This document shows, piece after piece, positions 3,711 to 59,318 of a DNA stretch of 64,000 bases (its first letter is position 1; each line of letters opens with the position of its first letter). The notes below the pieces were generated by a model that searched no databases, was not told where the DNA came from, and saw nothing but the letters and a program-made list of their open reading frames with translations. The translations under genes were made by a program, and so were the position numbers. Source of the DNA: Escherichia phage dhaeg; sequence record MN850609.1. One strand, 5' to 3'.

Positions 3711-5693
3711 TTATACTAAAGGTCCAATCAATTCATCAAAATCAGCACCAGTGCTCGTTGCAACGAAGTTCAACGTGATGTAGTTAATAGAACGAGAAGG
3801 TTTTACGTATATATTAGCAATAAACTCGTTACGGTCGATAACCGCAGGGGTGTTCACTGTAGTATCACAAACCACACGTCCTTCATAAATCCCACCAAGT
3901 GCCTTAATACCATCTAAGTACTGAGAAACTTCCATACGGAAGCTTGAACGAGTGAAGTTATCGTTCAATTCAAACAGTTTATATTTAGAGGCATCACCGA
4001 TATTTTTCTTAAGCATGTTGAACAGACGGCGAACGTTAATGTGGTCCATCGGAGATGGAACTTTAGTTGCAGTCTTATCACCAAACAATACGAAACCATC
4101 ACCACCAGCAAAACCAACAACTGGGTTAATAGCTTCCTGGTACATGCGGTCGCGTTGTGCTTGGCGTGGTTCAATTGCCAATTTCAGAACGTTAAGAATC
4201 TGACCACGGTTATAACCAGCAGGAGACATCCAAGGCTGAGACACATCATCAGTACGTGCACACAAACCAGCCATATCAGCAGCCAGTGGTACCCAACGGT
4301 TTACGTCATTATATTTGTCATACTGATATTTATAGTTACCATCAATAGCAGCATAAGTGGTACTGATGTTCATGTTGTTGGCATCGAAATTACCAGCACC
4401 GGTACGCCAGTCAATAAGGTTATCTACTGCACGAGTCAGTGGAACGTTAACCAACAGTCCTTTAGGAGGAGAAATAAATGCTAAGCAATCCTGACGTTCA
4501 TCAGCAATACTCACAACGTGTTTCTGAACAGTAGAAGCCACTTCGTCGCCTTCACCAGCAACAGCACCGGCAATAAGCAGGTTAATATGGAGTGCTTCAC
4601 GATCGGCAAACAAATCCCAACCTTGCATCAAATCGCCTGCAGTAACTTTATCGTTAGCAGAAACACCGCCCATCAGATTAATGATACCGCTGAAGCCTTT
4701 AGGCCAGTTCAAAGAGGTAGCAAAAATATAGTTGGAAGTACCTTTAGCGAAATAGTCGTCAAGATAAATGTTATTACCGTAAACGTCTTTTTCACCTTCT
4801 TTGGTAGAAAGTACGACAGATTCTACGATAGCGCCATCGCGACGAACAATAATTGCGTATTGGTCATCTGTTTGCGGTCCGTAATTAAATACTGCCTTGG
4901 CAATAGAAGCACGGGTACCACCGCCAGGATAAATATCCAGCATTTTAGAAGAACCAGCATCATAAGCGGCTTTGGAAACGATTTCTACTTCCAGAGTAGA
5001 ACCAATTTCACCGGGATAAAGAGCCACTACGCCTGGCATAGCAAATTTCTTAAGAGAAGCTTGGAATTCAAGAGAAGTAATAGCTTCTTCACTATTCTCT
5101 GCTTCAGTCAAAAGAATACCGGAATCCGTAACAATTTTACCTACGGTAATAGTACCAGAAACACCGGAAGATGCAGAAGTAACTTCAGCGGTCCAAGCTG
5201 GGCCAAGGGTAGGATACTGGTTTAAAGAACGTGCATAAGCAATAATTTTTGCTGACGGAATAAACACGGAAAGAATTTTACCGTCTGTATCTACAGAAGT
5301 CACACGACCTTCAGATTCGACTACAGTTTGGTTATATTTAATATTGATTTTATCGCCTACTGCATAGTTGGAACCGGCCGTAGTAATAGTGGTCTCAATG
5401 TTACCAGCGATAGGAGATGCGTTTTTAGCAAATTCGCGACTAACAACACGAACTGTGCGAAGGTCATTACCATACTGGAGGAAGTTCATACCAGACATAA
5501 AGTAATCTGCTACTTCGTTATTAGGACCTCCAAATAAATCAACCAGTTCAACTTCATTAGTAATCTGAGTTACCTGGAAAGCAGGGCCCCACTGGAATTT
5601 ACCTACCAGCGCTGCACGACCCGTTGCGTTACGAACGACAGTACTCTGTACGGACGTTTCTTTGAGCTCAATGCCCGGTGATAATAAAGCCAT
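3711..5693 (-). CDS. 18: tail sheath protein gp18
   Basis: 660 aa; MALLSPGIELKETSVQSTVV... closely matches recalled T4 gp18 along its length. Confidence 0.95.
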   Translation of the reverse strand: MALLSPGIELKETSVQSTVVRNATGRAALVGKFQWGPAFQVTQITNEVELVDLFGGPNNEVADYFMSGMNFLQYGNDLRTVRVVSREFAKNASPIAGNIETTITTAGSNYAVGDKINIKYNQTVVESEGRVTSVDTDGKILSVFIPSAKIIAYARSLNQYPTLGPAWTAEVTSASSGVSGTITVGKIVTDSGILLTEAENSEEAITSLEFQASLKKFAMPGVVALYPGEIGSTLEVEIVSKAAYDAGSSKMLDIYPGGGTRASIAKAVFNYGPQTDDQYAIIVRRDGAIVESVVLSTKEGEKDVYGNNIYLDDYFAKGTSNYIFATSLNWPKGFSGIINLMGGVSANDKVTAGDLMQGWDLFADREALHINLLIAGAVAGEGDEVASTVQKHVVSIADERQDCLAFISPPKGLLVNVPLTRAVDNLIDWRTGAGNFDANNMNISTTYAAIDGNYKYQYDKYNDVNRWVPLAADMAGLCARTDDVSQPWMSPAGYNRGQILNVLKLAIEPRQAQRDRMYQEAINPVVGFAGGDGFVLFGDKTATKVPSPMDHINVRRLFNMLKKNIGDASKYKLFELNDNFTRSSFRMEVSQYLDGIKALGGIYEGRVVCDTTVNTPAVIDRNEFIANIYVKPSRSINYITLNFVATSTGADFDELIGPLV

Positions 5694-5722
5694 TTTGAAT
5701 CCTCTTGGTTATGCTTTATTGT

Positions 5723-8032
<2,310 letters not shown>

Positions 8033-8036
<4 letters not shown>

Positions 8037-8899
8037 GGGTTTCTCCTTGGTGCTGGAGGCTCTGGTTCAACAGGCACCGGAATATCTTGTGAATACGTTT
8101 GAATGGACTTACCATCCCATTCTTTTTCTTCTACGCCTCTAGGAACTACTTCGCTATCAACCGATTCAAAATTACCTTCAGGAGCGAGTTCTTTAGAGTT
8201 GGCAAAGAAATCAAGATAAATGGTTTTGATTTCGCCTTCCATTTCTTTAACAGGAGGATATAGCCATCCGTTAACCTCAAACATCATAGACCATTCTAAG
8301 CGACGACGTGAAGTGGTATCACCTTCTAATTGTTCGTCCATTGCTATAGATTGGAACACAATACGAATATCACGGTCAAATTTAATTTCGTTTGTATAGA
8401 GTTCGGTAATTGTTGTATTAAAGTGAGGTTGGAAATACGGCATAATTTGTTCCACAATCTGGAACATATCATCTTGAGTTCTAGTGTAAATACCCAGTTC
8501 AAAAATCATTTTTACTGGAGTAGGAGAATATTGGCTGACTCGTTTCCGAGGGTCTCCATTCTCAAATTGAATTTGTGTTCTATTTTGAAGAGCCGTTTTG
8601 TATTGTGAGTTATAAAGCATGTCAACCATTTGGAGGTTCATACGTGGAAGAACAGTTTCCACTTTAGCTTTTTGTTCAGCCCTTTCTTTTGGGGACATAT
8701 TAGGATTTGGGATATTTTGAACTGCGGTCCACTTACCTAAATTAGCCATAAATCTTTCTTTAGAAGCATACGTAATAGGAACCTTAATAAATTTAAGCCC
8801 TGTATCTTCTCTTTGACGTGCTACTTGAACATGGGAAAATAAATCACCCATCAAAACAATATAGCGACGTAGCGAACTATTATACCAATGTCCAAACAT
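8033..8899 (-). CDS. 15: tail sheath stabiliser / tail terminator gp15
   Basis: ORF-track start 8902 is TTG; adjacent ATG at 8899 has AGGAGG 5 nt upstream; synteny. Confidence 0.85.
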
Positions 8900-8909
8900 C
8901 AAACCTCCT

Positions 8910-8931
8910 AAAATGGCGCATAGTGCGCCAT
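8910..8931 (-). terminator. rho-independent terminator downstream of gene 14
   Basis: Minus strand AUGGCGCA-cua-UGCGCCAU followed by UUUU. Confidence 0.5.
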
Positions 8932-49693: not shown

Positions 49694-50254
49694 ATGATTA
49701 TTGAAACATCTGGGCTGTTTGGTGACCTGACTGCTGAAGTAGTTGATAATGCAATTGTGCTTTCACAAGAAGACGATAAAATCGTACTGACTATCCAAGA
49801 TATCAAGCCGCTTTATGATTTAAAGGTTTTGGACAAACACGAATATCTTAATGGCAGATTTAGAGGTGTATTTGATATTAATGATGGTTTATGGGCCCAG
49901 ATTTATAACCATGACAAAGGGTTTAATTTGGAAACAGACGGAGAATGTCTGAGCATTAGCGATTCTAGTAATTTCTTTAAATGTATTTTTAAACTGTTCC
50001 AGGAAGAATGCAAGCCGGAAGTTGAATGGAAAGTCCCTGGTCAAGATGCCGTAATTCGTTCTAGTGAAACATTTGAAGGTGATGAAGAAGAAATGGATTA
50101 TGATACCGAACTAACCGTGTATCAACACCAGGGCCGTGATTTGCTATCCTTGGTCCAAAGACACGACGGTGAAAATGAAGTTGTATTTACGAAGGACGAG
50201 CTAAAAGTTTTAGTATCTTATCTGAACTCTGTTATCCCAACTATGAACTCTTAA
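49694..50254 (+). CDS. hypothetical acidic protein
   Basis: 186 aa ORF with GAGGAA RBS. Confidence 0.5.
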   Translation: MIIETSGLFGDLTAEVVDNAIVLSQEDDKIVLTIQDIKPLYDLKVLDKHEYLNGRFRGVFDINDGLWAQIYNHDKGFNLETDGECLSISDSSNFFKCIFKLFQEECKPEVEWKVPGQDAVIRSSETFEGDEEEMDYDTELTVYQHQGRDLLSLVQRHDGENEVVFTKDELKVLVSYLNSVIPTMNS

Positions 50255-50263
50255 GGAAATATT

Positions 50264-50716
50264 ATGATTATCAATGAAAACTCTTGGCATGTTAAATTAC
50301 ATGACCGCTTTTATGCCAGTTATTCGCGTCCGCGATCATTATGCGCATACTTCTGGAAAATGGTTTGGGTGTGCTTTATGTGTTCTGTGCTTGCAGGTAG
50401 TACTATTTTCGGCTTAACTGTTGCAGGTGCCGGTATATTGGAGCAGTTCTTTGTATTGAGTACTCCTGTTGGTTTAAGTTTAGGTTTTATTTTAGGACTG
50501 ATTATAATAGCCCTTATTCTAGCGGTAGCTTTTGGTTTGGTGTATGGTCTAATGAATTTATGGGCCCGGTACGATTTACGTAAAGAAGAAAAAGAATGGG
50601 AACGCATTAAAGCTAAACGTGAAGGAAAGGAAATTAAAGAAAATGTTTTCATTCAATATATTAAAGCTCGTAAATCTAAGATGTGTCCGGTAATCCATTT
50701 TGAGGCTAAGAAATGA
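50264..50716 (+). CDS. membrane protein
   Basis: 150 aa; multiple hydrophobic helices. Confidence 0.5.
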   Translation: MIINENSWHVKLHDRFYASYSRPRSLCAYFWKMVWVCFMCSVLAGSTIFGLTVAGAGILEQFFVLSTPVGLSLGFILGLIIIALILAVAFGLVYGLMNLWARYDLRKEEKEWERIKAKREGKEIKENVFIQYIKARKSKMCPVIHFEAKK

Positions 50717-51723
50717 GAACAGTTATGAAAGGCTACTTCGGTAGCCACCTTTATGGAACAAGTACTCCGGAATCTGATGTCGATTTTAAAGAAATCTTTG
50801 TTCCACATCCGCGTGATATTCTGTTAGGTACGGCAATGAACCATACCAACCTGAACACGAATAACACTGCTTCCAAAAACACTAAAGATGATGTTGACCA
50901 TGAGCTTTACAGTCTGAAATATTTCTTTAAACTAGCTGCTGAAGGCGAAACCGTTGCTCTGGATATGCTCCACACTCCGCCTGAAATGGTGGTTAAATCT
51001 GATTTACCTGATGTATGGAAATTTATCCAAGATAACCGTTCGCGTTTCTATACAACCAACATGAAAGCCTATTTAGGGTACGTCCGTAAGCAAGCTTCTA
51101 AATATGGTGTTAAGGGTTCTCGACTGGCTGCTTTACGTGGTGTACTGGCAATTGTTAACCAGATTCCTGAACAGTGGGTTGATTATCAAGAAGATGGTTC
51201 TACTAAGCAACGACGTACTAAGGTAGAAGATATTAAGCACCGGCTCCCTGAAAATGAGTTCTGTGAATGGGTATTTCATAACCACGAGAAAACAGGTCCT
51301 CAAACGTTCTATACCGTCCTCGGTCGTAAATACCAAACTACTTTGTCATTAATCGAGCTCAAGCAATCTCTGAATAAACTTGATGCCGAATATGGTGAAC
51401 GTGCTCGTAAGGCCGAAGCCAATGAAGGTATTGACTGGAAAGCTCTGAGCCACGCTTATCGTGCTGGATATCAGTTGAAGGAAATCTATCAAACAGGCGA
51501 TTTGGTTTATCCACTTAAAAATGCTTCTATTATTAAAGCAATAAAAGCAGGTGATATGCCTTTTAAAGTGGTCCAAGGGCTGCTAGAAAACATTGTTGAT
51601 GAAGTTGAAGTCCTGGCTGTACAAGCTCATAAGAACGGTATACCTGAGAAGGTGGACATGAAGTTCTGGGACAAGTTCGTCGAAGAGGTGTATCTTGACA
51701 ACCACAACTCTTATTACCGCTAA
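50713..51723 (+). CDS. nucleotidyltransferase-fold protein (Pol-beta superfamily-like)
   Basis: 336 aa; N-terminal G-S-x(n)-D-x-D (FGSHLYGTSTPESDVDF) plus downstream acidic residue (VALDML); helical C-terminal domain. Confidence 0.55.
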   Translation: MRTVMKGYFGSHLYGTSTPESDVDFKEIFVPHPRDILLGTAMNHTNLNTNNTASKNTKDDVDHELYSLKYFFKLAAEGETVALDMLHTPPEMVVKSDLPDVWKFIQDNRSRFYTTNMKAYLGYVRKQASKYGVKGSRLAALRGVLAIVNQIPEQWVDYQEDGSTKQRRTKVEDIKHRLPENEFCEWVFHNHEKTGPQTFYTVLGRKYQTTLSLIELKQSLNKLDAEYGERARKAEANEGIDWKALSHAYRAGYQLKEIYQTGDLVYPLKNASIIKAIKAGDMPFKVVQGLLENIVDEVEVLAVQAHKNGIPEKVDMKFWDKFVEEVYLDNHNSYYR

Positions 51724-51918
51724 AGAAGAAATCAAGGTTTTCCTGTCATATGGAAGACCTCATAAAACCTGTCGTTGGTATCTTGAAGTAGTTTGTAGAG
51801 AAACCGGTAGACGAATCAATTTCAAGTACGTATGCAAGCCTACGTCTAAGCAGATAAGACGGTGTATTAACTGGGCTATCAATAATATCCGCTTCCATAA
51901 TTATTGGAGCGCAATTTA

Positions 51919-51941
51919 GGAACCTTCGGGTTCCTTTTTTT
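51919..51941 (+). terminator. rho-independent terminator
   Basis: GGAACC-UUCG-GGUUCC followed by UUUUUUU. Confidence 0.65.
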
Positions 51942-51960
51942 GGGTTCAGCACAAAAAAGT

Positions 51961-51989
51961 GTTTACAACCTAGTAGAGCATGTTATTAT
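51961..51989 (+). promoter_or_regulatory. early promoter cassette
   Basis: GTTTACA-16-TATTAT plus ggacctatcaa leader. Confidence 0.55.
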
Positions 51990-52026
51990 GGACCTATCAA
52001 ATCTACTGAGTGAAACGGAGAATATA

Positions 52027-53007
52027 ATGTTAACTATCAAAATCAACAAAGGTATCTATCGAGGTAATGAAATCTCTGGTACGTTCATGAGTTCAGGTAA
52101 AACCTGGTTCCCTAATAAAATTCATGAATCCGAAGCTCACCTCGGTGACGGCAAGGTATTTGTACAGATTGATGGTGTTGAACGTGGTGTGTGGGTGTTC
52201 AAATGTGACATCGAAATGGAAGGTGCTGAAGCTCCTGCAATGGTCACCGAATCCGCTGAAGAAATGAAACACCGCATCAACAAACGTTTTAAAGTAATGA
52301 ACATGATGACTAACGGAATCATCGATGGTAAAATTCGTTCCCTTATCATCTCTGGTGCCGCAGGTATTGGTAAAACATACTCTTTGGATAAAGCATTACA
52401 AAATGCCCATGAAAATGAAACTATCGAATATAAATCAATCAACGGAAAGATTAGTGGAATCGGTCTTTACGAGCAGCTTTGGAATAACCGCGGCCCTAAT
52501 AGTGTTCTTCTTATTGATGATGTTGATGTATTCTCTGACATGGATATCCTGAACCTTCTGAAAGCCGCATTGGATACTGGTGAAAAACGTAAGGTGTGTT
52601 GGAGCACTTCAAGTTCTTACCTCGACGATAAAAATATCGATAAAGAATTCGAATACGAAGGCACCATCGTGTTCATCACCAACGTTGATATTGACCGTGA
52701 ATTAGAGCGTGGAACTAAACTTGCTCCACACCTCCAGGCTTTAGTATCTCGTTCCGTTTATCTCGACTTGGGTGTTCACTCAAACGAAGAGATTATGGTT
52801 CGGGTTGAAGACGTTATCCTGTCCACTGATATGATGCAAAACCGAGGTCTGACCGATGCCGAGACTTATCAAGCTTTAGCATGGATGAAGGCTAATGTAT
52901 CTCGTCTTCGTAACGTATCATTACGTACAGCTCTTTATCTGGCGGACTTCATTGCCACCGATAAAAATGACTGGAGCGAAATCGCTGAAGTTACACTTCT
53001 GAAATAA
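52027..53007 (+). CDS. P-loop ATPase (AAA-like)
   Basis: 326 aa from ATG 52027 (ORF-track start 51904 reads through terminator and promoter); Walker A GAAGIGKT, Walker B VLLIDDVD. Confidence 0.6.
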   Translation: MLTIKINKGIYRGNEISGTFMSSGKTWFPNKIHESEAHLGDGKVFVQIDGVERGVWVFKCDIEMEGAEAPAMVTESAEEMKHRINKRFKVMNMMTNGIIDGKIRSLIISGAAGIGKTYSLDKALQNAHENETIEYKSINGKISGIGLYEQLWNNRGPNSVLLIDDVDVFSDMDILNLLKAALDTGEKRKVCWSTSSSYLDDKNIDKEFEYEGTIVFITNVDIDRELERGTKLAPHLQALVSRSVYLDLGVHSNEEIMVRVEDVILSTDMMQNRGLTDAETYQALAWMKANVSRLRNVSLRTALYLADFIATDKNDWSEIAEVTLLK

Positions 53008-53017
53008 AGGTGAAATT

Positions 53018-53359
53018 ATGTTCGAACAATTTAGTTATGACCTTATAAAAACAGAGTTGAAATACTCTAATGCCATGAAACAGTCTATTGAAGACTATGA
53101 TAATGAATTTAAACACCAATTCGCCGAGAAGGTTTACAAAACCGATTGTGAAGAAGGAGACTACAAGAGACTGGCCTTGGCCGCGAAGACCCAAGCCTTA
53201 ATAAATCTAGACCGTAAGCAGGTTAAGTTGGCAGGCGACTTCAGAGATGAACTCTGCGCCATCAGGAACGAATACCTTATTCGTATTAAACACCAACGGA
53301 AAGAGAACACCCAATCCGCATGGTTTAGTGGGCAAGCCGGTGAAAAAAGTTTTTATTAG
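53018..53359 (+). CDS. hypothetical protein
   Basis: 113 aa ORF. Confidence 0.5.
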   Translation: MFEQFSYDLIKTELKYSNAMKQSIEDYDNEFKHQFAEKVYKTDCEEGDYKRLALAAKTQALINLDRKQVKLAGDFRDELCAIRNEYLIRIKHQRKENTQSAWFSGQAGEKSFY

Positions 53360-53361
53360 TT

Positions 53362-53390
53362 GTTTACATCTCCAGTAGAAATGATACTAT
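53362..53390 (+). promoter_or_regulatory. early promoter cassette
   Basis: GTTTACA-16-TACTAT plus gacctatcaactaatggagg leader. Confidence 0.6.
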
Positions 53391-53416
53391 AGACCTATCA
53401 ACTAATGGAGGTTATC

Positions 53417-53941
53417 ATGAACGCTAAAGATATTTTTTCACTGATTAATTTTAACAATGGTAATTTCAAATCTGAAAAACAAAGCAAGTTCTTTAACGAC
53501 GTTGCTTGTGGTAATGAGATTACCGTATCTGGAGGAGAGATTTACAAAAGCCGTTGGAACTGGATTGTTATCATCGATTCAGTTGGTATTGTAGAGCTCT
53601 ATAAAAACACTAACAAAAAACGTACTCTTCACTGGAGTCGTGAAACCAATCAAGCTTATCAAGCCGAGCGTAATAAACGTTTAATGCCTACTGAATCTGA
53701 CCTGGCAAACGTTAAATCAGATATCGCTTATTTTGATAACTTGATTGCCGAACAACAAGCGGTTATTGATAAGTTTGACGAAATCAAAGCTTGTAAAGAG
53801 ATTCCTGAATTTATGCGGGAATCAGTAAACGAACAGTATGCCCTCACTTCAGGTCGTATCGAGCAGTACAAATCACAACGAGCTGAACGCCAAGCTCTGC
53901 TTCAGAAATTTGAAGAGCGTTTAAAGACGGTTCTCGCATAA
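53417..53941 (+). CDS. hypothetical protein with C-terminal coiled coil
   Basis: 174 aa from ATG 53417 after GGAGG. Confidence 0.5.
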   Translation: MNAKDIFSLINFNNGNFKSEKQSKFFNDVACGNEITVSGGEIYKSRWNWIVIIDSVGIVELYKNTNKKRTLHWSRETNQAYQAERNKRLMPTESDLANVKSDIAYFDNLIAEQQAVIDKFDEIKACKEIPEFMRESVNEQYALTSGRIEQYKSQRAERQALLQKFEERLKTVLA

Positions 53942-53942
53942 A

Positions 53943-53968
53943 CGCTTTATACCAAGGATGGTATAATG
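53943..53968 (+). promoter_or_regulatory. possible MotA-dependent middle promoter
   Basis: MotA-box-like CGCTTTA about 12 bp upstream of TATAAT. Confidence 0.4.
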
Positions 53969-54004
53969 GTTCTAGGTTCTTAATTACTTACTGAGGAAAT
54001 TATT

Positions 54005-54850
54005 ATGTCACAAGCAATTAATCAAATTCGTTCTGAAGTTAAAAAAGTTGTTAAATTTGGTCGTATTCCTAGTTCTAAAGAAGTGGTTGAAAAGGTCCTA
54101 TATATGATGTGGGACAAGTTCAATGTTTGTACTGTTAAAGATGACTTTATTAAAATCTTTGACAAGACTAAAGGTTCGTTTACGTTAGAAGACCGGGTCA
54201 TGAAAACTCTTCGTAAAACAGGTATGTTGTCTCGTGCTAATGCCAAAATTATTCTTAAAAATTATAACAAAGGCTACGACCTTTATGGTCGTTTAATCCC
54301 GGCGATGTCATTTGGTGAAGTTGTTCAAGACCTTCATGCCAACCAACGACGTTTACTGGCTCTTGGCGCTCGACTTGCAAAAGGTCTTGATAAACAAATG
54401 ACATTTAAGACTAACGGTTCAGGTGATTGGATTATCTTTAATATTGTTAACCACCCTGGAAATGAAAATGAGTATACCATTTCGACTTTTAGTGGTTGTC
54501 AATACGACAACTGGAAGTTCCATCTGCGCTTGGCCCTGTCTGAATTAGAACAACACGGTGTTCTTAGTTTTGGTGATGCTGAAACTGGAGTAGGTCAGCG
54601 TATTAAACTTTATAAAATTAAAGACCTGGCTGAAGAGCATTCAGAACAAGCTCCTAAAATGGAACCTGTACCAGTGCGCAGCAATGAGAAACATCAGGCC
54701 CAGATTGAGTATTTTAGCAATTTGCTTACTTGCTTGAATGTTACAATCCAACAACAAGATGATGAGATTTTCCGACTCTCTGGTCTTAATGCCAAAGCTA
54801 AGGCTGAACGCCAGAAATATATCGATATCCTAAATCTTCTTAAGGATTAA
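54005..54850 (+). CDS. hypothetical protein with C-terminal coiled coil
   Basis: 281 aa ORF, GAGGAAATTATT RBS. Confidence 0.5.
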   Translation: MSQAINQIRSEVKKVVKFGRIPSSKEVVEKVLYMMWDKFNVCTVKDDFIKIFDKTKGSFTLEDRVMKTLRKTGMLSRANAKIILKNYNKGYDLYGRLIPAMSFGEVVQDLHANQRRLLALGARLAKGLDKQMTFKTNGSGDWIIFNIVNHPGNENEYTISTFSGCQYDNWKFHLRLALSELEQHGVLSFGDAETGVGQRIKLYKIKDLAEEHSEQAPKMEPVPVRSNEKHQAQIEYFSNLLTCLNVTIQQQDDEIFRLSGLNAKAKAERQKYIDILNLLKD

Positions 54851-54934
54851 TTATGGAATGGCTCGCTGTTCTTGGTTATGTAATCGTAGCCACGGGTGTT
54901 CTGTGGCTAATTTTCTCAAACATTATAGGTTAAT

Positions 54935-55150
54935 ATGGAAATCTTAGGTTTTATTCTCCTTTACTTTGTGCTAGGATTTATGACGACCTTTATCATTCAT
55001 AAATCAGGTGATTGGAATCCGATCGAAATTGAATCAAGCTATGATGCAGTATTCATTACACTAGTATGGCCCCTACTTTGGGTTGTTTTGGTCATTATGA
55101 TGGTGTTTTGGCCTATCGCTAAATTCTATGAAAAATTATTTGGACTTTAA
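54935..55150 (+). CDS. small membrane protein
   Basis: 71 aa, two hydrophobic helices. Confidence 0.5.
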   Translation: MEILGFILLYFVLGFMTTFIIHKSGDWNPIEIESSYDAVFITLVWPLLWVVLVIMMVFWPIAKFYEKLFGL

Positions 55151-55151
55151 T

Positions 55152-56021
55152 ATGAACATTAAAACACGTAAAGAATACTCTATATACGACCATGACACAA
55201 CTCGTCGTATCGCTATTGACAGGTTAGCCGACTTTGGTCATATTTGTAATGGTAATTATACTTATGGCGTAGGTCGTAAAGGAACTTATATTTCTTCTTT
55301 GAACGATTATTGCCGTCGCCCAGCCCACCTGTTTGGTGCAACATTACGAGCTAATATCAAAGACCTCTTGGCTACTGCAGGACGTATTTCTACGGTTCCT
55401 GTTAATATCAAGAATATTAATTTTACGGCCCGTAACCTAGTCATTAATATTCTGTCTGACGGTATTCAAGTTCGTTTTCGCCCCACCTCAAAAGGTAATA
55501 AGGCCCTTCGTGAAGCATTCGAAACCTTATTCAGAGAAGCAATGACTCGTATTAAGGCCGTAGAATCATATAAAGTTACAACCGATGAATATGCTGATTG
55601 TTCCGGGCAAGCCGATGCAGTGTATATCAGAGTTAAACTAACTAGCGAATATCTTTTATCTTATGCCCCTTATCAACCCCAACAAAAGGACCCACAAATG
55701 GAACGTCGTATCTCTGCAGTATCATGTGACAGCGTAGGCCAGTATGCAGCCTATGACAAATTCAAAACCACCGCTGTGCCTAGTCCATTCAATTCCGAAC
55801 CGTATCATTGGAAAATTAAACCTGATAATTCTTTGGTTGTTACTAACCCTACGATGAAACCTATTGAGACCTATTATGCAGATAGCATTCAGGAATCAAT
55901 CCATCGTTTAAATGGTCAGATTGAAGATGAGAAAAAGAGCATTCAAGACGTTCTTAATCGCATCAAGAATATGGAAAACCAGCGTGACAAGCTTCGCGCG
56001 GCACTATTAGCTCTAAAATAA
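55152..56021 (+). CDS. hypothetical protein with C-terminal coiled coil
   Basis: Start at ATG 55152 just after upstream stop (alternative ATG 55128). Confidence 0.5.
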   Translation: MNIKTRKEYSIYDHDTTRRIAIDRLADFGHICNGNYTYGVGRKGTYISSLNDYCRRPAHLFGATLRANIKDLLATAGRISTVPVNIKNINFTARNLVINILSDGIQVRFRPTSKGNKALREAFETLFREAMTRIKAVESYKVTTDEYADCSGQADAVYIRVKLTSEYLLSYAPYQPQQKDPQMERRISAVSCDSVGQYAAYDKFKTTAVPSPFNSEPYHWKIKPDNSLVVTNPTMKPIETYYADSIQESIHRLNGQIEDEKKSIQDVLNRIKNMENQRDKLRAALLALK

Positions 56022-56022
56022 T

Positions 56023-56052
56023 GTTTACATCCAAGGACGGATGGAGTATAAT
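56023..56052 (+). promoter_or_regulatory. early promoter (TTTACA-17-TATAAT)
   Basis: Consensus spacing; stem AAGGAC...TCCTT flanks the -10. Confidence 0.55.
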
Positions 56053-56080
56053 CCTTTTATCAACTACTGAGGAGAATATC

Positions 56081-57091
56081 ATGACCCGTACTGAATACAT
56101 CAATGCCTTTACTACGTATATCACTGACAATACCCCTCCATTAACCCCATATGAGGTGATAGTTTCCAATATCAATAAATGGGTAGACCAAATTGATGAA
56201 GATTTGTCGCTGTATTTTAAATCTGAAATAGAAAAGATTGCAGGGCGTTTGTTTATCCCTGATATCATAGATACATTTAAAGGTTCTCGACTTCTTTCGC
56301 GGCTGGTTAATAAGGATATCCTTTCAGAGTTTGGCAAAGAGAAACACCCAGGTTCCAGCCACGTTGTTAGCTACCAATGGTTTGGTGATGTTTTAAAAAG
56401 CTATATCAAAATGAAAGGTATGGATCCTAGTGGTCTATTTCCACAGCGTTGGACTAGTGAATTTAAGGCTAACTCTGCATTAATTCTCAAAGCGGCCTCT
56501 AAAACCATAGTTTCTGGTGATTCCCGTACTATTCACCCTATGGCTAATTGCATGATTAAAACAAATAGTTATAAAGGAAAAGCAATTATTTCTGTTATTT
56601 GGTCACCTAATAGGAAACCTAAAGATGACGCGGAAGTTGTAAAGTATCAAGATATTGCTTACGACACCTTGAATATTATCGAACAAGCCTTAGCTTTTAT
56701 GGATACAGTAGAGAAATATGAGACTCAAGAAGTAAAACATTTCTATGGCTGGAAAGGATACGAGGTCTTAGTAAAAGTTCGCGAAATCAAATGCCATGTT
56801 CCAAAAACTGACGCTGAAATTTACCAAGAAAAATGTGAGGAAATTGTGAACACTGATAAAGAGCCTGCTACATTAGAAGACTTGATTAACGACTTGAATA
56901 GCCCTATCATGGCTCCTACACCAATTACTAAATCCAAGTTACCGGAAATCGTTGCCTTAGAAAAAGCGTATAAAGATGCCCTTGCTATTAACAAAAAACT
57001 GACTGGCCAATATACCGCTGCCAAGAAACTTTGGGAAGAGTCTACCAATCGTTTAGACCGTCTTGAACAAGCTCTGGAGCTGTTGAAATGA
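56081..57091 (+). CDS. hypothetical protein with C-terminal coiled coil
   Basis: 336 aa from ATG 56081 after GAGGAG (ORF-track start 56021 reads through the promoter). Confidence 0.5.
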   Translation: MTRTEYINAFTTYITDNTPPLTPYEVIVSNINKWVDQIDEDLSLYFKSEIEKIAGRLFIPDIIDTFKGSRLLSRLVNKDILSEFGKEKHPGSSHVVSYQWFGDVLKSYIKMKGMDPSGLFPQRWTSEFKANSALILKAASKTIVSGDSRTIHPMANCMIKTNSYKGKAIISVIWSPNRKPKDDAEVVKYQDIAYDTLNIIEQALAFMDTVEKYETQEVKHFYGWKGYEVLVKVREIKCHVPKTDAEIYQEKCEEIVNTDKEPATLEDLINDLNSPIMAPTPITKSKLPEIVALEKAYKDALAINKKLTGQYTAAKKLWEESTNRLDRLEQALELLK

Positions 57092-57309
57092 AATATCAAT
57101 TAGCCGATGATATCGACCAAACTATTCCTGATTGGAATCAAATTATTAAAATTGTCGAACGTCGTGAAAAAGCTTCTAAGAACGTTCCTAACTGTCCTGA
57201 GTGCGGAACTGAACAAGTCCAGTTGACTCAATGGCGTCATAATCCGCTTCAGTATAAATGCCGTCATTGTAAACACCGATTTGAGCGAGATGAAAATGGC
57301 AAAGCGTAA
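57088..57309 (+). CDS. zinc-ribbon protein
   Basis: 73 aa; CPECG...CRHC four-Cys pattern. Confidence 0.5.
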
Positions 57310-57532
57310 AGAATATGTAGAGGCCGCTGATAAGGCGGTCCGTGAACTTACTTTGGCTTATTATAAAGAGCACGGTAAATTTCCGGACAGTTATTCAGTA
57401 TTGAAATCTGCTTTAACTCGTTCGTATAATAATATACTATCTGATGTATATGATTTAAAATACGAACACCTCGAAAAATACGGAACAGAACTTGACCGTT
57501 CTGAAGCATTCAAACAAGTATTAGGAATTTAA
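57290..57532 (+). CDS. hypothetical protein
   Basis: ATG 57290 (or 57296); ORF-track start 57281 is TTG. Confidence 0.45.
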
Positions 57533-57533
57533 A

Positions 57534-57797
57534 ATGTTTAAAGTTTATGGTTACGATTCAAATATTCACCGTTGTGTTTTCTGTGATAATGCCAAACGTC
57601 TACTTGATGTTAAGAAACAACCTTACGAATTCATTAACGTGATGCCGGAAAAAGGTGTATTTGATGATAAGAAGATTGCTGAACTCTTGGCTGCTCTTGG
57701 TCGTGAATCTCAAGTAGGTTTGACCATGCCTCAGGTATTTGCTCCTGACGGAACTTCTATTGGTGGCTTTGACCAACTGCGAGCATATTTCAAATGA
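57534..57797 (+). CDS. nrdC: glutaredoxin/thioredoxin NrdC
   Basis: 87 aa; MFKVYGYDSNIH.C..CDNAKRLL.VKKQP.EFIN.MPEKGVFDD.KIAELL ... GLTMPQVFAPDG..IGGFDQLR.YFK matches recalled T4 NrdC. Confidence 0.9.
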   Translation: MFKVYGYDSNIHRCVFCDNAKRLLDVKKQPYEFINVMPEKGVFDDKKIAELLAALGRESQVGLTMPQVFAPDGTSIGGFDQLRAYFK

Positions 57798-57961
57798 TTG
57801 AATTATTGTTGGGTATTTTGTATCTTATCATCGGTATTGGTTATGCTAAGACCCTAGCTAAATTAGATGATTTCGGTGCAGGTGACTTTTGTTGGTGGCT
57901 GACGTCTATGATTTGTTGGCCTTTATTTCTGGTTGGTGCTTCATTCTGGAACTTTAAATGA
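57794..57961 (+). CDS. small hydrophobic membrane protein (55 aa)
   Basis: ORF below track cutoff; ATGA overlap with nrdC stop; two hydrophobic helices. Confidence 0.4.
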   Translation: MIELLLGILYLIIGIGYAKTLAKLDDFGAGDFCWWLTSMICWPLFLVGASFWNFK

Positions 57962-58266
57962 TTGGATTAAATGAACAGACCATTTTTCTAGGTGATGGTA
58001 CTGAAGACGACCTAGAATATAAACTATACGAATATATGGTTTGGTTGGCTAAAGCAGAAGGTATTGATTTTGTTGTGGCTAACCCGTATGGCGAGAATAC
58101 TGTTGTAATCGGTGGCACTGCTTATGAAGTCCAATGGCAATACGTTGGGCTAGAATCTGAAGAATTTGAAGAAGATGAGCATGGTGATTGGCATCCGGTT
58201 GGCCCTTGGTATTGGGAAAACGGCGAGCCTGATTTTGAAGTAAGTAGTTGGTGGTGTGACCGTTAA
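57958..58266 (+). CDS. hypothetical acidic protein
   Basis: 102 aa; ATGA overlap. Confidence 0.5.
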   Translation: MIGLNEQTIFLGDGTEDDLEYKLYEYMVWLAKAEGIDFVVANPYGENTVVIGGTAYEVQWQYVGLESEEFEEDEHGDWHPVGPWYWENGEPDFEVSSWWCDR

Positions 58267-58382
58267 GCCATGGTATGTCGCTCGGTGGGAAACTACCGAG
58301 CCAGAGGAACCGGTTTACAACGATTCCGAAATAGAGTATAATGAACCTTCAAACAATGATTTAATCGATATGGAGTTTGGAT

Positions 58383-58556
58383 ATGAGTACCAAAATTGAA
58401 GTTGGCCGTCACAAAGGCCGTCTGATTGAGCATTCGCTTTACGAGTTGTCGGATTCGGGTTCTTTACCTGACCTAGAATCCGATTTGATTAAAGCTGCTG
58501 CTGACTATATCCATTGGCTTGAAGCTCAACTTCGCTTTGCTGATAAGGCGTTCTGA
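58383..58556 (+). CDS. hypothetical small protein (57 aa)
   Basis: ORF below track cutoff, fills the gap before gene 49. Confidence 0.4.
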   Translation: MSTKIEVGRHKGRLIEHSLYELSDSGSLPDLESDLIKAAADYIHWLEAQLRFADKAF

Positions 58557-58632
58557 TGAAAACTTCTACTGTAATCTTGTGCTTATGGGGAATTTTTAAT
58601 TTGGGTATGCTTGTTTACTTGGTGGGTCAATT

Positions 58633-58809
58633 ATGAAAACTAAATTAGTCTATACTGAAAAGTTAAATGGTGACAAGGTCTGGAAACTTCTTATCAAAGG
58701 AAGTCCTACCGACCAGTTTATGGCCACCTGTATAGGGTTGTATACCCGTCCTACCAAAAAGATGATTCGTCAATTTAAACGGTTGCATCGCTCATTTTAT
58801 AATGTTTAA
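58633..58809 (+). CDS. hypothetical small protein (58 aa)
   Basis: ORF below track cutoff; preceded by a 26-codon hydrophobic mini-ORF at 58556-58636. Confidence 0.35.
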   Translation: MKTKLVYTEKLNGDKVWKLLIKGSPTDQFMATCIGLYTRPTKKMIRQFKRLHRSFYNV

Positions 58810-58844
58810 TAAATACCCTTATCTAATAATGGTAAGGGTTTATT

Positions 58845-59318
58845 ATGTTGCTGACTGGCAAATTATACAAAGAAGAAAAACAAAATCTTTATGATGCACA
58901 ACATGGTAAGTGTTTGATTTGTAAACGTGAATTAAACCCTGATGTTCAAAGTAACCACCTTGACCACGACCATGAATTGAATGGGCCAAAAGCCGGTAAG
59001 GTTCGTGGTTTACTATGTAATCTGTGCAATGCTGCAGAAGGACAAATGAAGCATAAGTTCAACCGTTCTGGTTTGAAAGGTCAAAACGTTGACTACCTCG
59101 AATGGTTAGAGAATTTGCTGGTCTATCTGAAAGCTGATTATACCGAAAATAATATCCATCCTAATTTCGTTCCTGATAAAACCAAAGAGTTCAGTAGATT
59201 AGGTAAGGAAGAAATGATTGCTGAAATGCTTTCACATGGAATGACTTATAATGAATCTGACACAAAGAAACAAATGGTCGATTCATTTAAAAAACAACTG
59301 AGGAAATCGCTTAAATGA
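58845..59318 (+). CDS. 49: endonuclease VII (Holliday junction resolvase)
   Basis: 157 aa; MLLTGKLYKEEKQ..YDAQ.GKCLIC.RELNPDVQ.NHLDHDHELNGPKAGKVRGLLCNLCNAAEGQMKHKFNRSGLKGQ matches recalled T4 gp49. Confidence 0.95.
   Translation: MLLTGKLYKEEKQNLYDAQHGKCLICKRELNPDVQSNHLDHDHELNGPKAGKVRGLLCNLCNAAEGQMKHKFNRSGLKGQNVDYLEWLENLLVYLKADYTENNIHPNFVPDKTKEFSRLGKEEMIAEMLSHGMTYNESDTKKQMVDSFKKQLRKSLK

What the first reader, a model, noticed from the sequence alone, without database searches (positions are those of the whole stretch)
53417..57091. Four consecutive proteins with unrelated N-terminal domains but similar C-terminal coiled-coil tails
The ORFs at 53417, 54005, 55152 and 56081 each end in a heptad-rich helical tail of about 40 aa, for example DIAYFDNLIAEQQAVIDKFDEI and QIEYFSNLLTCLNVTIQQQDDEI, while their N-terminal domains differ. 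A shared coiled-coil module could be a common oligomerisation or docking handle. The region corresponds by position to the poorly characterised nrdC-proximal accessory block of T4-like phages.
Basis: seen in the sequence. Interest (0 to 1): 0.45.

Follow-up and report, generated by a model that had tools for sequence, protein, structure and literature searches.

The report
Paralogous phage early proteins sharing coiled-coil tails
Three of the four genes are very diverged tandem copies of one T4-type early-gene family (NrdC.6, NrdC.5, NrdC.4) that inherited the same C-terminal coiled-coil helix, the fourth (NrdC.8) only resembles them generically, and the family probably supplies anti-defence proteins, so the finding is real but mostly ordinary.

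Summary
The window is a Dhakavirus, a JS98-like T-even phage. The four ORFs are orthologues of T4 early genes nrdC.8, nrdC.6, nrdC.5 (Pfam DUF7235) and nrdC.4.

**Observation holds.** Their C-terminal 35 residues rank 1-4 of 105 putative genes in the window for heptad amphipathicity. AlphaFold2 gives single terminal helices of 48-50 residues for NrdC.4 and NrdC.6.

**"Unrelated N-terminal domains" is wrong for three of the four:**
- With the tails removed, profile comparisons still link NrdC.4 to NrdC.5 (E 5e-4), NrdC.6 (E 7e-4) and T4 NrdC.3 (E 6e-12).
- The two models have the same order of secondary-structure elements.
- These three are diverged tandem paralogues, so the tail is shared by descent, not grafted on.
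- NrdC.8 is a separate protein with a two-helix tail.

**Tail similarity.** Tail-to-tail sequence similarity does not exceed a heptad-preserving null (p 0.05-0.7).

**Tail constraint.** Within each family the tail is more constrained than the head (dN/dS 0.05-0.16 against 0.25-0.39).

**Likely function.** T4 nrdC.5 is published as overcoming Dsr1. The likeliest reading is a constant oligomerising stalk carrying fast-evolving anti-defence heads. Oligomerisation and function are inferred, not shown.

The parts
53417..53941 (+). ORF A, 174 aa, orthologue of T4 NrdC.8. Small N-terminal domain plus an ~80-aa two-helix C-terminal region (about nt 53693-53938). Not a member of the paralogue family.
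   Evidence: 69% identity to T4 NrdC.8. phrog_2274 E 2.5e-102. hhalign to c3-c6 profiles gives E >= 0.04. Two helices with core 7/10 and 8/13.
54005..54850 (+). ORF B, 281 aa, orthologue of NrdC.6. N-terminal helical bundle, beta-beta-alpha-beta-beta unit, disordered linker, terminal helix.
   Evidence: phrog_2257 E 3e-126. Homologues carry PF26899. AF2 model pLDDT 78. Heads-only hhalign to NrdC.4 E 7.2e-4 over 198 columns.
54695..54847 (+). Coiled-coil tail of B (residues 231-281), ending ...YIDILNLLKD.
   Evidence: AF2 helix 231-280. Heptad core 11/16. IQQxDDEIFRL and ER...LLK are nearly invariant across the family.
54887..54909 (+). Terminator-like hairpin between B and the small membrane ORF.
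   Evidence: 10-bp stem followed by a T run. Consensus match only.
54935..55150 (+). 71-aa hydrophobic ORF lying between B and C. Interrupts the array and has no coiled-coil tail.
   Evidence: ORF list. Conserved in Dhakavirus and Gaprivervirus loci. Heptad score 0.003.
55152..56021 (+). ORF C, 289 aa, NrdC.5 family (Pfam DUF7235). Distant orthologue of T4 NrdC.5, the published anti-Dsr1 gene.
   Evidence: PF23882 397 bits against a cut-off of 30. T4 NrdC.5 matches the same family at 421 bits. 26% identity over 296 aa to T4 NrdC.5. hhalign to NrdC.4 gives E 8e-5 full length and 4.8e-4 heads only.
55860..56018 (+). Coiled-coil tail of C (residues 237-289), ending ...LRAALLALK.
   Evidence: Highest C-terminal heptad score of the window. 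Core 12/15, last residue in heptad position e.
56024..56052 (+). Sigma-70-like promoter (TTTACA-17-TATAAT, 11/12) in the C-D gap. Supports 56081 as the start of D.
   Evidence: consensus match only. The MTR(N/T)EYI start is invariant in homologues.
56081..57091 (+). ORF D, 336 aa, orthologue of NrdC.4 and paralogue of T4 NrdC.3. Same architecture as B, with two extra helices before the linker.
   Evidence: 45% identity to T4 NrdC.4 and E 1e-8 to T4 NrdC.3. phrog_1435. AF2 model pLDDT 77.
56942..57088 (+). Coiled-coil tail of D (residues 288-336), ending ...LEQALELLK. The most conserved segment of the family.
   Evidence: AF2 helix 288-335. [23 protein letters not shown] is nearly invariant while the rest falls to 45% identity. 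Tail dN/dS 0.11-0.16 against 0.25-0.39 for the head.

Best explanation
**What it is.** The region is the Dhakavirus version of the T4 early block nrdC.8 - nrdC.6 - nrdC.5 - nrdC.4.
- NrdC.6, NrdC.5 (DUF7235) and NrdC.4, together with NrdC.3 in T4, are very diverged tandem paralogues of one family.
- Their common plan is an N-terminal helical bundle, a beta-beta-alpha-beta-beta unit, a disordered linker, and a ~50-residue amphipathic helix that runs to the C-terminus.
- The shared tail is therefore inherited, not a module added to unrelated domains.
- NrdC.8 is a separate small protein whose two-helix tail resembles the others only as any coiled coil does.

**How it most likely works (inferred).**
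- The terminal helix forms a parallel coiled coil that oligomerises each protein and is kept nearly constant.
- The heads evolve quickly and each binds a different host target.
- T4 NrdC.5 overcomes the Dsr1 defence, and the adjacent block holds an OLD inhibitor. The heads are therefore probably inhibitors of host defence or other host-takeover factors.

**Shown:** gene identity, paralogy, heptad tails, and stronger constraint on the tails.

**Inferred:** oligomerisation, and anti-defence function of the copies in this window.
For: **Identity**
- 97.9% DNA identity to phages dhabil and CLB_P2, and JS98 annotation of the same genes.
- Orthology to T4 genes.
- C and T4 NrdC.5 both match Pfam DUF7235 and phrog_2351.

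**Paralogy**
- BLASTP of D against T4 NrdC.3 gives E 1e-8.
- hhalign with tails removed: c3-c4 E 6e-12, c4-c5 E 4.8e-4 (156 columns), c4-c6 E 7.2e-4 (198 columns).
- Controls for those comparisons: reversed target E about 0.2; 25 block shuffles score 15-16 against 32-34 observed.
- The AF2 models of B and D have the same order of elements.
- Both models hit the same BFVD proteins (Sf25, PS2, P545). D also hits a 308-aa Yersinia phage protein, likely an NrdC.3-type protein by length, and the NrdC.6-family protein of Sf25.

**Tails**
- Ranks 1-4 of 105 genes on the heptad score.
- One heptad frame, ending at position e after a final Leu at d in NrdC.3, NrdC.4 and NrdC.5, and one residue later in NrdC.6.
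- Tail dN 0.15-0.30 and dN/dS 0.05-0.16, against head dN 0.42-0.56 and dN/dS 0.25-0.39 in the NrdC.4 comparisons and the Dhakavirus-Gaprivervirus NrdC.5 comparison. dS is saturated, so the constraint is on the protein.
- P0191 has a strongly diverged head and an almost identical NrdC.4 tail.
- Jiaodavirus and Tegunavirus keep ~300-aa relatives with a terminal coiled coil in the same block.

**Function**
- T4 nrdC.5 restores infection on Dsr1 cells (PMC9391042).
- Gp49.2 in the adjacent block inhibits OLD (PMC13096335).
- Copy number varies from 1 to 4 between genera.
Against: - No structure was predicted for C or A, so C's architecture rests on profile alignments with 32-61% hhalign probability.
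- The TM-scores of the BFVD matches are low (0.2-0.5), as expected for flexible multi-domain models, but this weakens the fold argument.
- Oligomerisation was not tested. The tails have only moderate pLDDT (65-78) as monomers.
- The anti-Dsr1 result is for T4 NrdC.5, which is only 26% identical to C. Nothing is known for NrdC.3, NrdC.4, NrdC.6 or NrdC.8.
- Head dN/dS is about 0.3, which is fast but not positive selection.
- The stronger constraint on the tail does not hold everywhere. In the window-to-T4 NrdC.5 comparison the tail is as diverged as the head. For NrdC.6, dS was not computable in any comparison, and against Gaprivervirus the tail is less conserved than the head. NrdC.8 head and tail are about equal.
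- No PDB relative was found that could suggest an activity.
Confidence: 0.55

Rival explanations
1. The tails are a common docking handle: the proteins hetero-oligomerise with each other, or all dock by the tail onto one shared partner. That partner could be a phage or host protein, for instance the neighbouring conserved NrdC.10 ATPase.
For: - The tails are more constrained than the heads.
- The NrdC.4 tail is almost invariant across genera, and in P0191 despite a diverged head.
- All paralogue tails share heptad frame and end point.
- The genes are adjacent and co-oriented.
Against: - Between paralogues the tails are no more alike than heptad-preserving shuffles. A single shared partner or mixed coiled coil would be expected to keep common surface residues.
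- Each family conserves its own distinct tail sequence.
- Copy number differs between genera, from 1 to 4, so no fixed hetero-complex is required.
- Nothing was tested directly.
Confidence: 0.15
2. The terminal helix is not an oligomerisation element but part of the working surface. It might bind or insert into the target, for example Dsr1, or fold back on the head as a regulatory helix.
For: - Strong family-specific conservation of tail residues, including b, c and f positions.
- Long disordered linkers would let the helix reach a partner.
Against: - The unbroken heptad seam over 6-8 heptads is typical of coiled coils.
- AF2 does not pack the helix against the head.
Confidence: 0.15
3. Pure coincidence. 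Four unrelated proteins each happen to end in a generic coiled coil.
For: - Tail-tail similarity is not above the heptad-preserving null.
- This does appear to be the case for A (NrdC.8) relative to the other three.
Against: - The four rank 1-4 of 105 genes.
- The heads of B, C and D are homologous.
- B and D have the same AF2 architecture.
Confidence: 0.05

Closest known systems
T4 NrdC.5 (Pfam DUF7235 / PF23882), the gene that lets T4 overcome the Dsr1 (SIR2) defence of E. coli ECOR17 (Srikant et al. 2022, PMC9391042)
   Same: ORF C matches the same Pfam and PHROG families over its full length. It occupies the same position between nrdC.6 and nrdC.4. It has the same terminal coiled coil in the same heptad frame.
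   Different: Only 26% identity and 50 residues shorter at the N-terminus. Activity against Dsr1 was not tested for this copy.
T4 NrdC.4 / NrdC.3 (phrog_1435; PF26897 on homologues) and NrdC.6 (phrog_2257; PF26899)
   Same: D and B are full-length orthologues at 45% and 48% identity. They have the same gene order and the same tails.
   Different: Pfam keeps NrdC.4, NrdC.5 and NrdC.6 as three separate families, and PHROGs merges only NrdC.3 with NrdC.4. The evidence here joins all four into one diverged superfamily. Dhakavirus lacks NrdC.3.
T4 NrdC.8 (phrog_2274)
   Same: A is its orthologue at 69% identity.
   Different: It has no detectable relation to the NrdC.3-6 group. Its tail is a helix-break-helix, not a single coiled coil.
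Tandem, fast-evolving accessory or anti-defence gene arrays of T-even phages (for example the dmd-tifA-adfA anti-TA island; Gp49.2 anti-OLD next to nrdC)
   Same: Early, non-essential, co-oriented genes. Copy number varies between genera. One member has a proven counter-defence role.
   Different: Those islands hold unrelated small proteins. Here the members are paralogues with a constant coiled-coil stalk.

Membership tests
Pfam DUF7235 (PF23882), NrdC.5 family | Whole-protein score above the gathering cut-off (30 bits) | tested here: met
   ORF C scores 397.1 bits, E 8e-119, profile positions 9-307 of 307. T4 NrdC.5 scores 420.6 bits.
Pfam DUF7235 (PF23882), NrdC.5 family | Counter-defence activity against Dsr1, known for T4 NrdC.5 only | not testable with these tools
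   Needs plaque assays on Dsr1-expressing cells. Literature only.
NrdC.4 / NrdC.3 family (phrog_1435; PF26897) | Full-length profile match and orthology to T4 NrdC.4 | tested here: met
   ORF D matches phrog_1435 at E 5.7e-143 over 1-336. 45% identity over the full length of T4 NrdC.4. All 38 homologues carry PF26897.
NrdC.6 family (phrog_2257; PF26899) | Full-length profile match and orthology to NrdC.6 | tested here: met
   ORF B matches phrog_2257 at E 3.1e-126. Homologues carry PF26899. JS98 and VR7 annotate it as nrdC.6.
NrdC.8 family (phrog_2274) | Full-length profile match and orthology to T4 NrdC.8 | tested here: met
   ORF A matches phrog_2274 at E 2.5e-102. 69% identity to T4 NrdC.8.
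Proposed NrdC.3-6 superfamily (paralogues) | Homology of the N-terminal parts once the tails are removed | tested here: met
   c3-c4 E 6e-12, c4-c5 E 4.8e-4, c4-c6 E 7.2e-4. Shuffled and reversed controls give E 0.007-0.24 and scores about half the observed. c5-c6 is not linked directly (E 0.13).
Proposed NrdC.3-6 superfamily (paralogues) | Same fold and domain order | tested here: inconclusive
   B and D have the same secondary-structure order and shared BFVD hits. TM-scores are low, no direct superposition was possible, and there are no models for C or A.
Proposed NrdC.3-6 superfamily (paralogues) | Membership of ORF A (NrdC.8) | tested here: not met
   hhalign E >= 0.04 to every family, with or without tails.
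Coiled coil | Continuous heptad repeat with a hydrophobic a/d core in a long helix | tested here: met
   Core 11-12 of 14-16 in B, C and D. AF2 helices of 48-50 residues. Ranks 1-4 of 105 genes. A is weaker, with two helices at 7/10 and 8/13.
Coiled coil | Actual oligomer formation, homo or hetero | not testable with these tools
   No multimer prediction was available. Needs AF-multimer, SEC-MALS or two-hybrid.
   Against heptad-preserving column shuffles: c3-c5 14/300, c4-c5 24/300, c6-c8 25/300, others above 0.1. No DNA repeats. The NrdC.4 profile finds no other tail-bearing protein in 1.84 billion representatives.

The most novel reading that the evidence does not exclude
The NrdC.3-6 proteins are a constant-stalk, variable-head counter-defence platform. 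A conserved coiled-coil stalk would oligomerise, possibly also between paralogues. It would display rapidly diversifying heads, each neutralising a different bacterial defence system, with Dsr1 being the first known target. The array would then be a phage analogue of a diversified receptor family. It would also be a ready source of new anti-defence proteins across Straboviridae.
Probability: 0.25. Interest if true: 0.6.

Novelty: new member of a known kind. Interest (0 to 1): 0.3.

Why it matters
**If the reading is right**
- Three to four "hypothetical" early genes present in hundreds of T-even phages form one family, with a member already shown to defeat Dsr1.
- That makes NrdC.3, NrdC.4 and NrdC.6 obvious candidates for screens against other defence systems.
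- It also suggests a simple experiment, tail deletion or tail swap, to learn how NrdC.5 works.

**Annotation problems it flags**
- Pfam splits NrdC.4, NrdC.5 and NrdC.6 into separate families, and PHROGs joins only NrdC.3 with NrdC.4.
- Many GenBank records call these proteins "thioredoxin" without any such domain.

**Limits**
- The genes themselves are known, the region is ordinary for a T-even phage, and the mechanism remains inferred.

Tried and rejected
- **Single-sequence comparison of the tails.** Smith-Waterman with shuffles gave z 0.9-4.7, too weak to decide. It was replaced by profile comparisons.
They were replaced by my own profile-profile Smith-Waterman.
- **Gene conversion between tails** was rejected. 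There are no DNA repeats between them, and dS is saturated between genera.
- **RNA or DNA-level explanation of tail conservation** was rejected. There are no Rfam hits in 50000-59000, and synonymous sites are saturated.
- **Solved-structure relatives.** None by sequence. None significant by fold for B: best E 0.006, TM about 0.2, with weak H-NOX-like and designed-protein hits.
- **NCBIfam** found nothing.
- **Terminal Leu-Lys as a special motif** was rejected. 10 of 105 genes in the window end in L[KN], optionally plus one further residue.
- **P0190 as proof of head swapping** was not accepted. Its DUF7235 tail half is fused to an unrelated N-terminus, but no sequenced phage carries that N-terminus and the contig is only 1.9 kb.
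- **Slopekvirus KP15** has a different gene content after nrdC.11, so it was uninformative.
- **Profile search with NrdC.4 against 1.84 billion representatives** gave only 7 hits. The family cannot be widened by sequence alone.
Full report
**What the region is**

The 4.4 kb around the finding is 97.9% identical to Escherichia phages dhabil and CLB_P2, and 94% identical to JS98 and JS10. These belong to the genus Dhakavirus, a T-even group.

In JS98 the same ORFs are annotated nrdC.8, nrdC.6, orf86 and nrdC.4. They lie between nrdC.11/nrdC.10 and nrdC.2/nrdC.1/nrdC. This matches the T4 map, which I fetched for comparison.

| ORF | Window coordinates | Length | Relation to T4 |
|---|---|---|---|
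| A | 53417-53941 | 174 aa | 69% identical to NrdC.8 |
| B | 54005-54850 | 281 aa | 48% identical to NrdC.6 |
| C | 55152-56021 | 289 aa | 26% identical over 296 aa to NrdC.5 (E 2e-19) |
| D | 56081-57091 | 336 aa | 45% identical to NrdC.4; also E 1e-8 to NrdC.3 |

- C and T4 NrdC.5 both match Pfam DUF7235, at 397 and 421 bits against a cut-off of 30. Both also match phrog_2351.
- A 71-aa hydrophobic ORF (54935-55150) sits between B and C.
- A promoter-like site at 56024-56052 lies inside the longer alternative reading of D.
- No Rfam family is present in the region.

I scored the last 35 residues of each of 105 putative genes of the window for heptad amphipathicity. C, D, A and B rank first to fourth. 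Four near-adjacent genes taking the top four places is not chance.

AlphaFold2 models give a single terminal helix in D (residues 288-335) and in B (231-280). Each helix is preceded by a low-confidence linker.

One heptad frame fits the whole tail in B, C and D. The same holds for T4 NrdC.3 and NrdC.5 and for a Yersinia phage relative, with 11-15 of 13-17 core positions hydrophobic. In all of these the chain ends at heptad position e, directly after a final Leu at d. NrdC.6 ends one residue later.

A differs. Its helical part is about 80 residues in two helices broken at EIPEF, with a poorer core.

**Are the tails alike beyond generic coiled coils?**

- I built family alignments from 17 related loci plus database homologues.
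- I then compared the tail profiles pairwise.
- Against full column shuffles some pairs stand out: c3-c5 z 4.2, c4-c5 z 3.0, c6-c8 z 2.8.
- Against shuffles that keep each column's heptad position none is convincing. The best is 14/300, and most are above 0.1.
The T4 and Gaprivervirus orthologues read MYDNL/YYDGL against YFNKQ/LFTKQ.
- There is no DNA repeat between the tails.
- A profile of NrdC.4, tail included, found only seven proteins among 1.84 billion representatives. All were NrdC.4, fragments of it, or NrdC.3.
- A terminal L[KN], optionally with one further residue, is common in this genome (10 of 105 genes).

This null cannot distinguish an ancient common origin from convergence, so the decisive evidence has to come from the rest of the proteins.

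**The N-terminal parts are related**

With the tails cut off, hhalign still aligns the families collinearly:

| Pair | E-value | Columns aligned |
|---|---|---|
| NrdC.3 - NrdC.4 | 6e-12 | 227 |
| NrdC.4 - NrdC.5 | 4.8e-4 | 156 |
| NrdC.4 - NrdC.6 | 7.2e-4 | 198 |

- Reversed targets give E about 0.2. Twenty-five block shuffles give scores of 15-16, against 32-34 observed.
- Unrelated neighbours (NrdC.9, NrdC.10, NrdC.11) give E of 0.04 or worse.
- The full-length NrdC.4-NrdC.5 alignment (E 8e-5) carries the beta-beta-alpha-beta-beta unit and the tail in register. It includes the motif AL..M.TVEKY against AM..IKAVESY.

The two AF2 models have the same order of elements:
1. five or six N-terminal helices;
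2. a loop;
3. two or three helices;
4. a beta hairpin, a helix and a second beta hairpin;
5. a disordered linker;
6. the long terminal helix.

D has two extra helices before the linker.

Foldseek against BFVD gave overlapping results for the two models:
- D hits a 308-aa Yersinia phage protein, likely an NrdC.3-type protein by length, at E 1e-6.
- D hits the NrdC.6-family protein of phage Sf25 at E 2e-3.
- D and B share hits in Serratia PS2 and Klebsiella P545.
- B also hits ~300-340-aa proteins of Enterobacter, Pectobacterium, Acinetobacter and Citrobacter T4-like phages.
- TM-scores are low (0.2-0.5), as expected for flexible multi-domain models. I therefore treat the fold evidence as supporting rather than decisive.

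A shows nothing to any family (E of 0.04 or worse).

**Comparative picture**

| Genus | Members present |
|---|---|
| Tequatrovirus | NrdC.3, NrdC.4, NrdC.5, NrdC.6, NrdC.8 |
| Dhakavirus and Gaprivervirus | NrdC.4, NrdC.5, NrdC.6, NrdC.8 |
| Mosigvirus G2285 | NrdC.3, NrdC.6, NrdC.8 |

- Jiaodavirus KpV477 has one 324-aa protein in the block, with a terminal coiled coil. It matches the NrdC.4 profile at E 3.6e-4.
- Tegunavirus phiR1-RT has a 292-aa protein ending LQESLRTLK. It matches the NrdC.6 profile at E 1.1e-3.
- Weak PHROG cross-hits (phrog_26858, phrog_33957) tie these proteins together further.
- The family is old, copy number varies, and the terminal coiled coil is the part that persists.

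**Selection**

Between genera, synonymous sites are saturated in both heads and tails. Amino-acid conservation of the tails is therefore a protein-level constraint, not recent recombination or a nucleic-acid signal.

In the NrdC.4 comparisons and the Dhakavirus-Gaprivervirus NrdC.5 comparison:

| Region | dN | dN/dS |
|---|---|---|
| Tail | 0.15-0.30 | 0.05-0.16 |
| Head | 0.42-0.56 | 0.25-0.39 |

The pattern does not hold in every comparison:
- In the window-to-T4 NrdC.5 comparison the tail is as diverged as the head.
- For NrdC.6, dS was not computable in any comparison. Against Gaprivervirus the tail is less conserved than the head.
- In NrdC.8 head and tail are about equal.

The last 23 residues of NrdC.4 are almost invariant while the rest falls to 45% identity. 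A distant NrdC.4 (P0191) has a strongly diverged head and a nearly identical tail.

**Function**

- No solved structure is related by sequence.
- None is related significantly by fold.
- NCBIfam gives nothing.
- The only experimental handle is in the literature. Expression of T4 nrdC.5 restores infection by a T4 deletion mutant on cells carrying the SIR2-domain defence gene dsr1 (PMC9391042).
- In the adjacent block, Gp49.2 inhibits the OLD defence (PMC13096335).

Combined with early expression, non-essentiality, variable copy number and fast-evolving heads, the best-supported mechanism is as follows. The terminal helix forms a coiled coil that oligomerises each protein and is kept constant. 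The heads diversify to bind different host targets, probably defence proteins.

Oligomerisation, the oligomer type, and any activity of the copies in this window are inferences.

**Rivals**

- A common docking partner or hetero-oligomers (0.15). This fits the strong tail constraint. It does not fit the lack of shared tail residues between paralogues, nor the variable copy number.
- The helix as part of the target-binding surface (0.15).
- Coincidence (0.05). This holds only for A.

**Verdict**

The interpretation needs correcting in two ways:
- B, C and D are diverged tandem paralogues that share the tail by descent.
- A is a separate protein whose tail similarity to the others is generic.

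The genes are known T-even ORFs. What is new is modest:
- NrdC.3, NrdC.4, NrdC.5 and NrdC.6 join into one superfamily;
- the constant-stalk, variable-head reading;
- its link to a published anti-Dsr1 gene.

Interest 0.3.

Noticed in passing
L002 (T4 NC_000866), nrdC.6, record 52066-52893: The T4 reference nrdC.6 has a 1-nt deletion (GAGCTGAATATT to GAGCTGATATT) relative to other Tequatrovirus genomes. This replaces the coiled-coil tail by 16 unrelated residues. The conserved tail ISIQQYDDEIFRLSGLSSKAKSEREKLIKIVDLLKS is still readable in the +2 frame. It is either a sequencing error or a natural tail-less allele.
   Followed up: yes
P0190 (ENA metagenome contig, 1873 nt): A 336-aa protein joins the C-terminal half of DUF7235 plus its tail to an unrelated 186-aa N-terminus. 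No sequenced phage carries that N-terminus. It may be an assembly chimera or a real head swap.
   Followed up: partly
P0127 (Shigella phage Sf25, 378 aa): This NrdC.6 homologue contains an internal tandem duplication of about 83 residues (IRAHSTDYVNMGHH...QIEEL appears twice).
   Followed up: no
L007 (Escherichia phage vB_EcoM_005), NrdC.4 at 7941-8912 and NrdC.8 at 5606-6031: Both proteins have in-frame internal deletions inside their helical tails ([16 protein letters not shown] and EIPEFM---ERLKTVLA). The same phage also has a shortened NrdC.5.
   Followed up: no
window 53417-57091 and homologues in GenBank: Many records name the NrdC.4, NrdC.5 and NrdC.6 homologues 'thioredoxin', although Pfam finds no thioredoxin domain in them. 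The name seems to have spread from the 'nrdC.x' locus labels. One paper treats nrdC.8 as a nucleotide reductase for the same reason.
   Followed up: partly
window 50713-53007: Upstream lie two genes that are far more conserved than the paralogue array (77-82% identity to T4). One is an RlaP-like nucleotidyltransferase (NrdC.11, 50713-51723). The other is an AAA/STAND-like ATPase (NrdC.10, about 51988-53007), which also ends in ...AEVTLLK. Whether they work with the array is unknown.
   Followed up: no
window 57088-57309: NrdC.2 is a small zinc-ribbon protein. Its ATG overlaps the stop codon of D (ATGA), suggesting translational coupling.
   Followed up: no
window 53018-53359: The 113-aa ORF (JS98 orf89, Pfam DUF7203) is a distant NrdC.9 homologue (28% identity, E 1e-5). 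It is helical but has no heptad tail.
   Followed up: no
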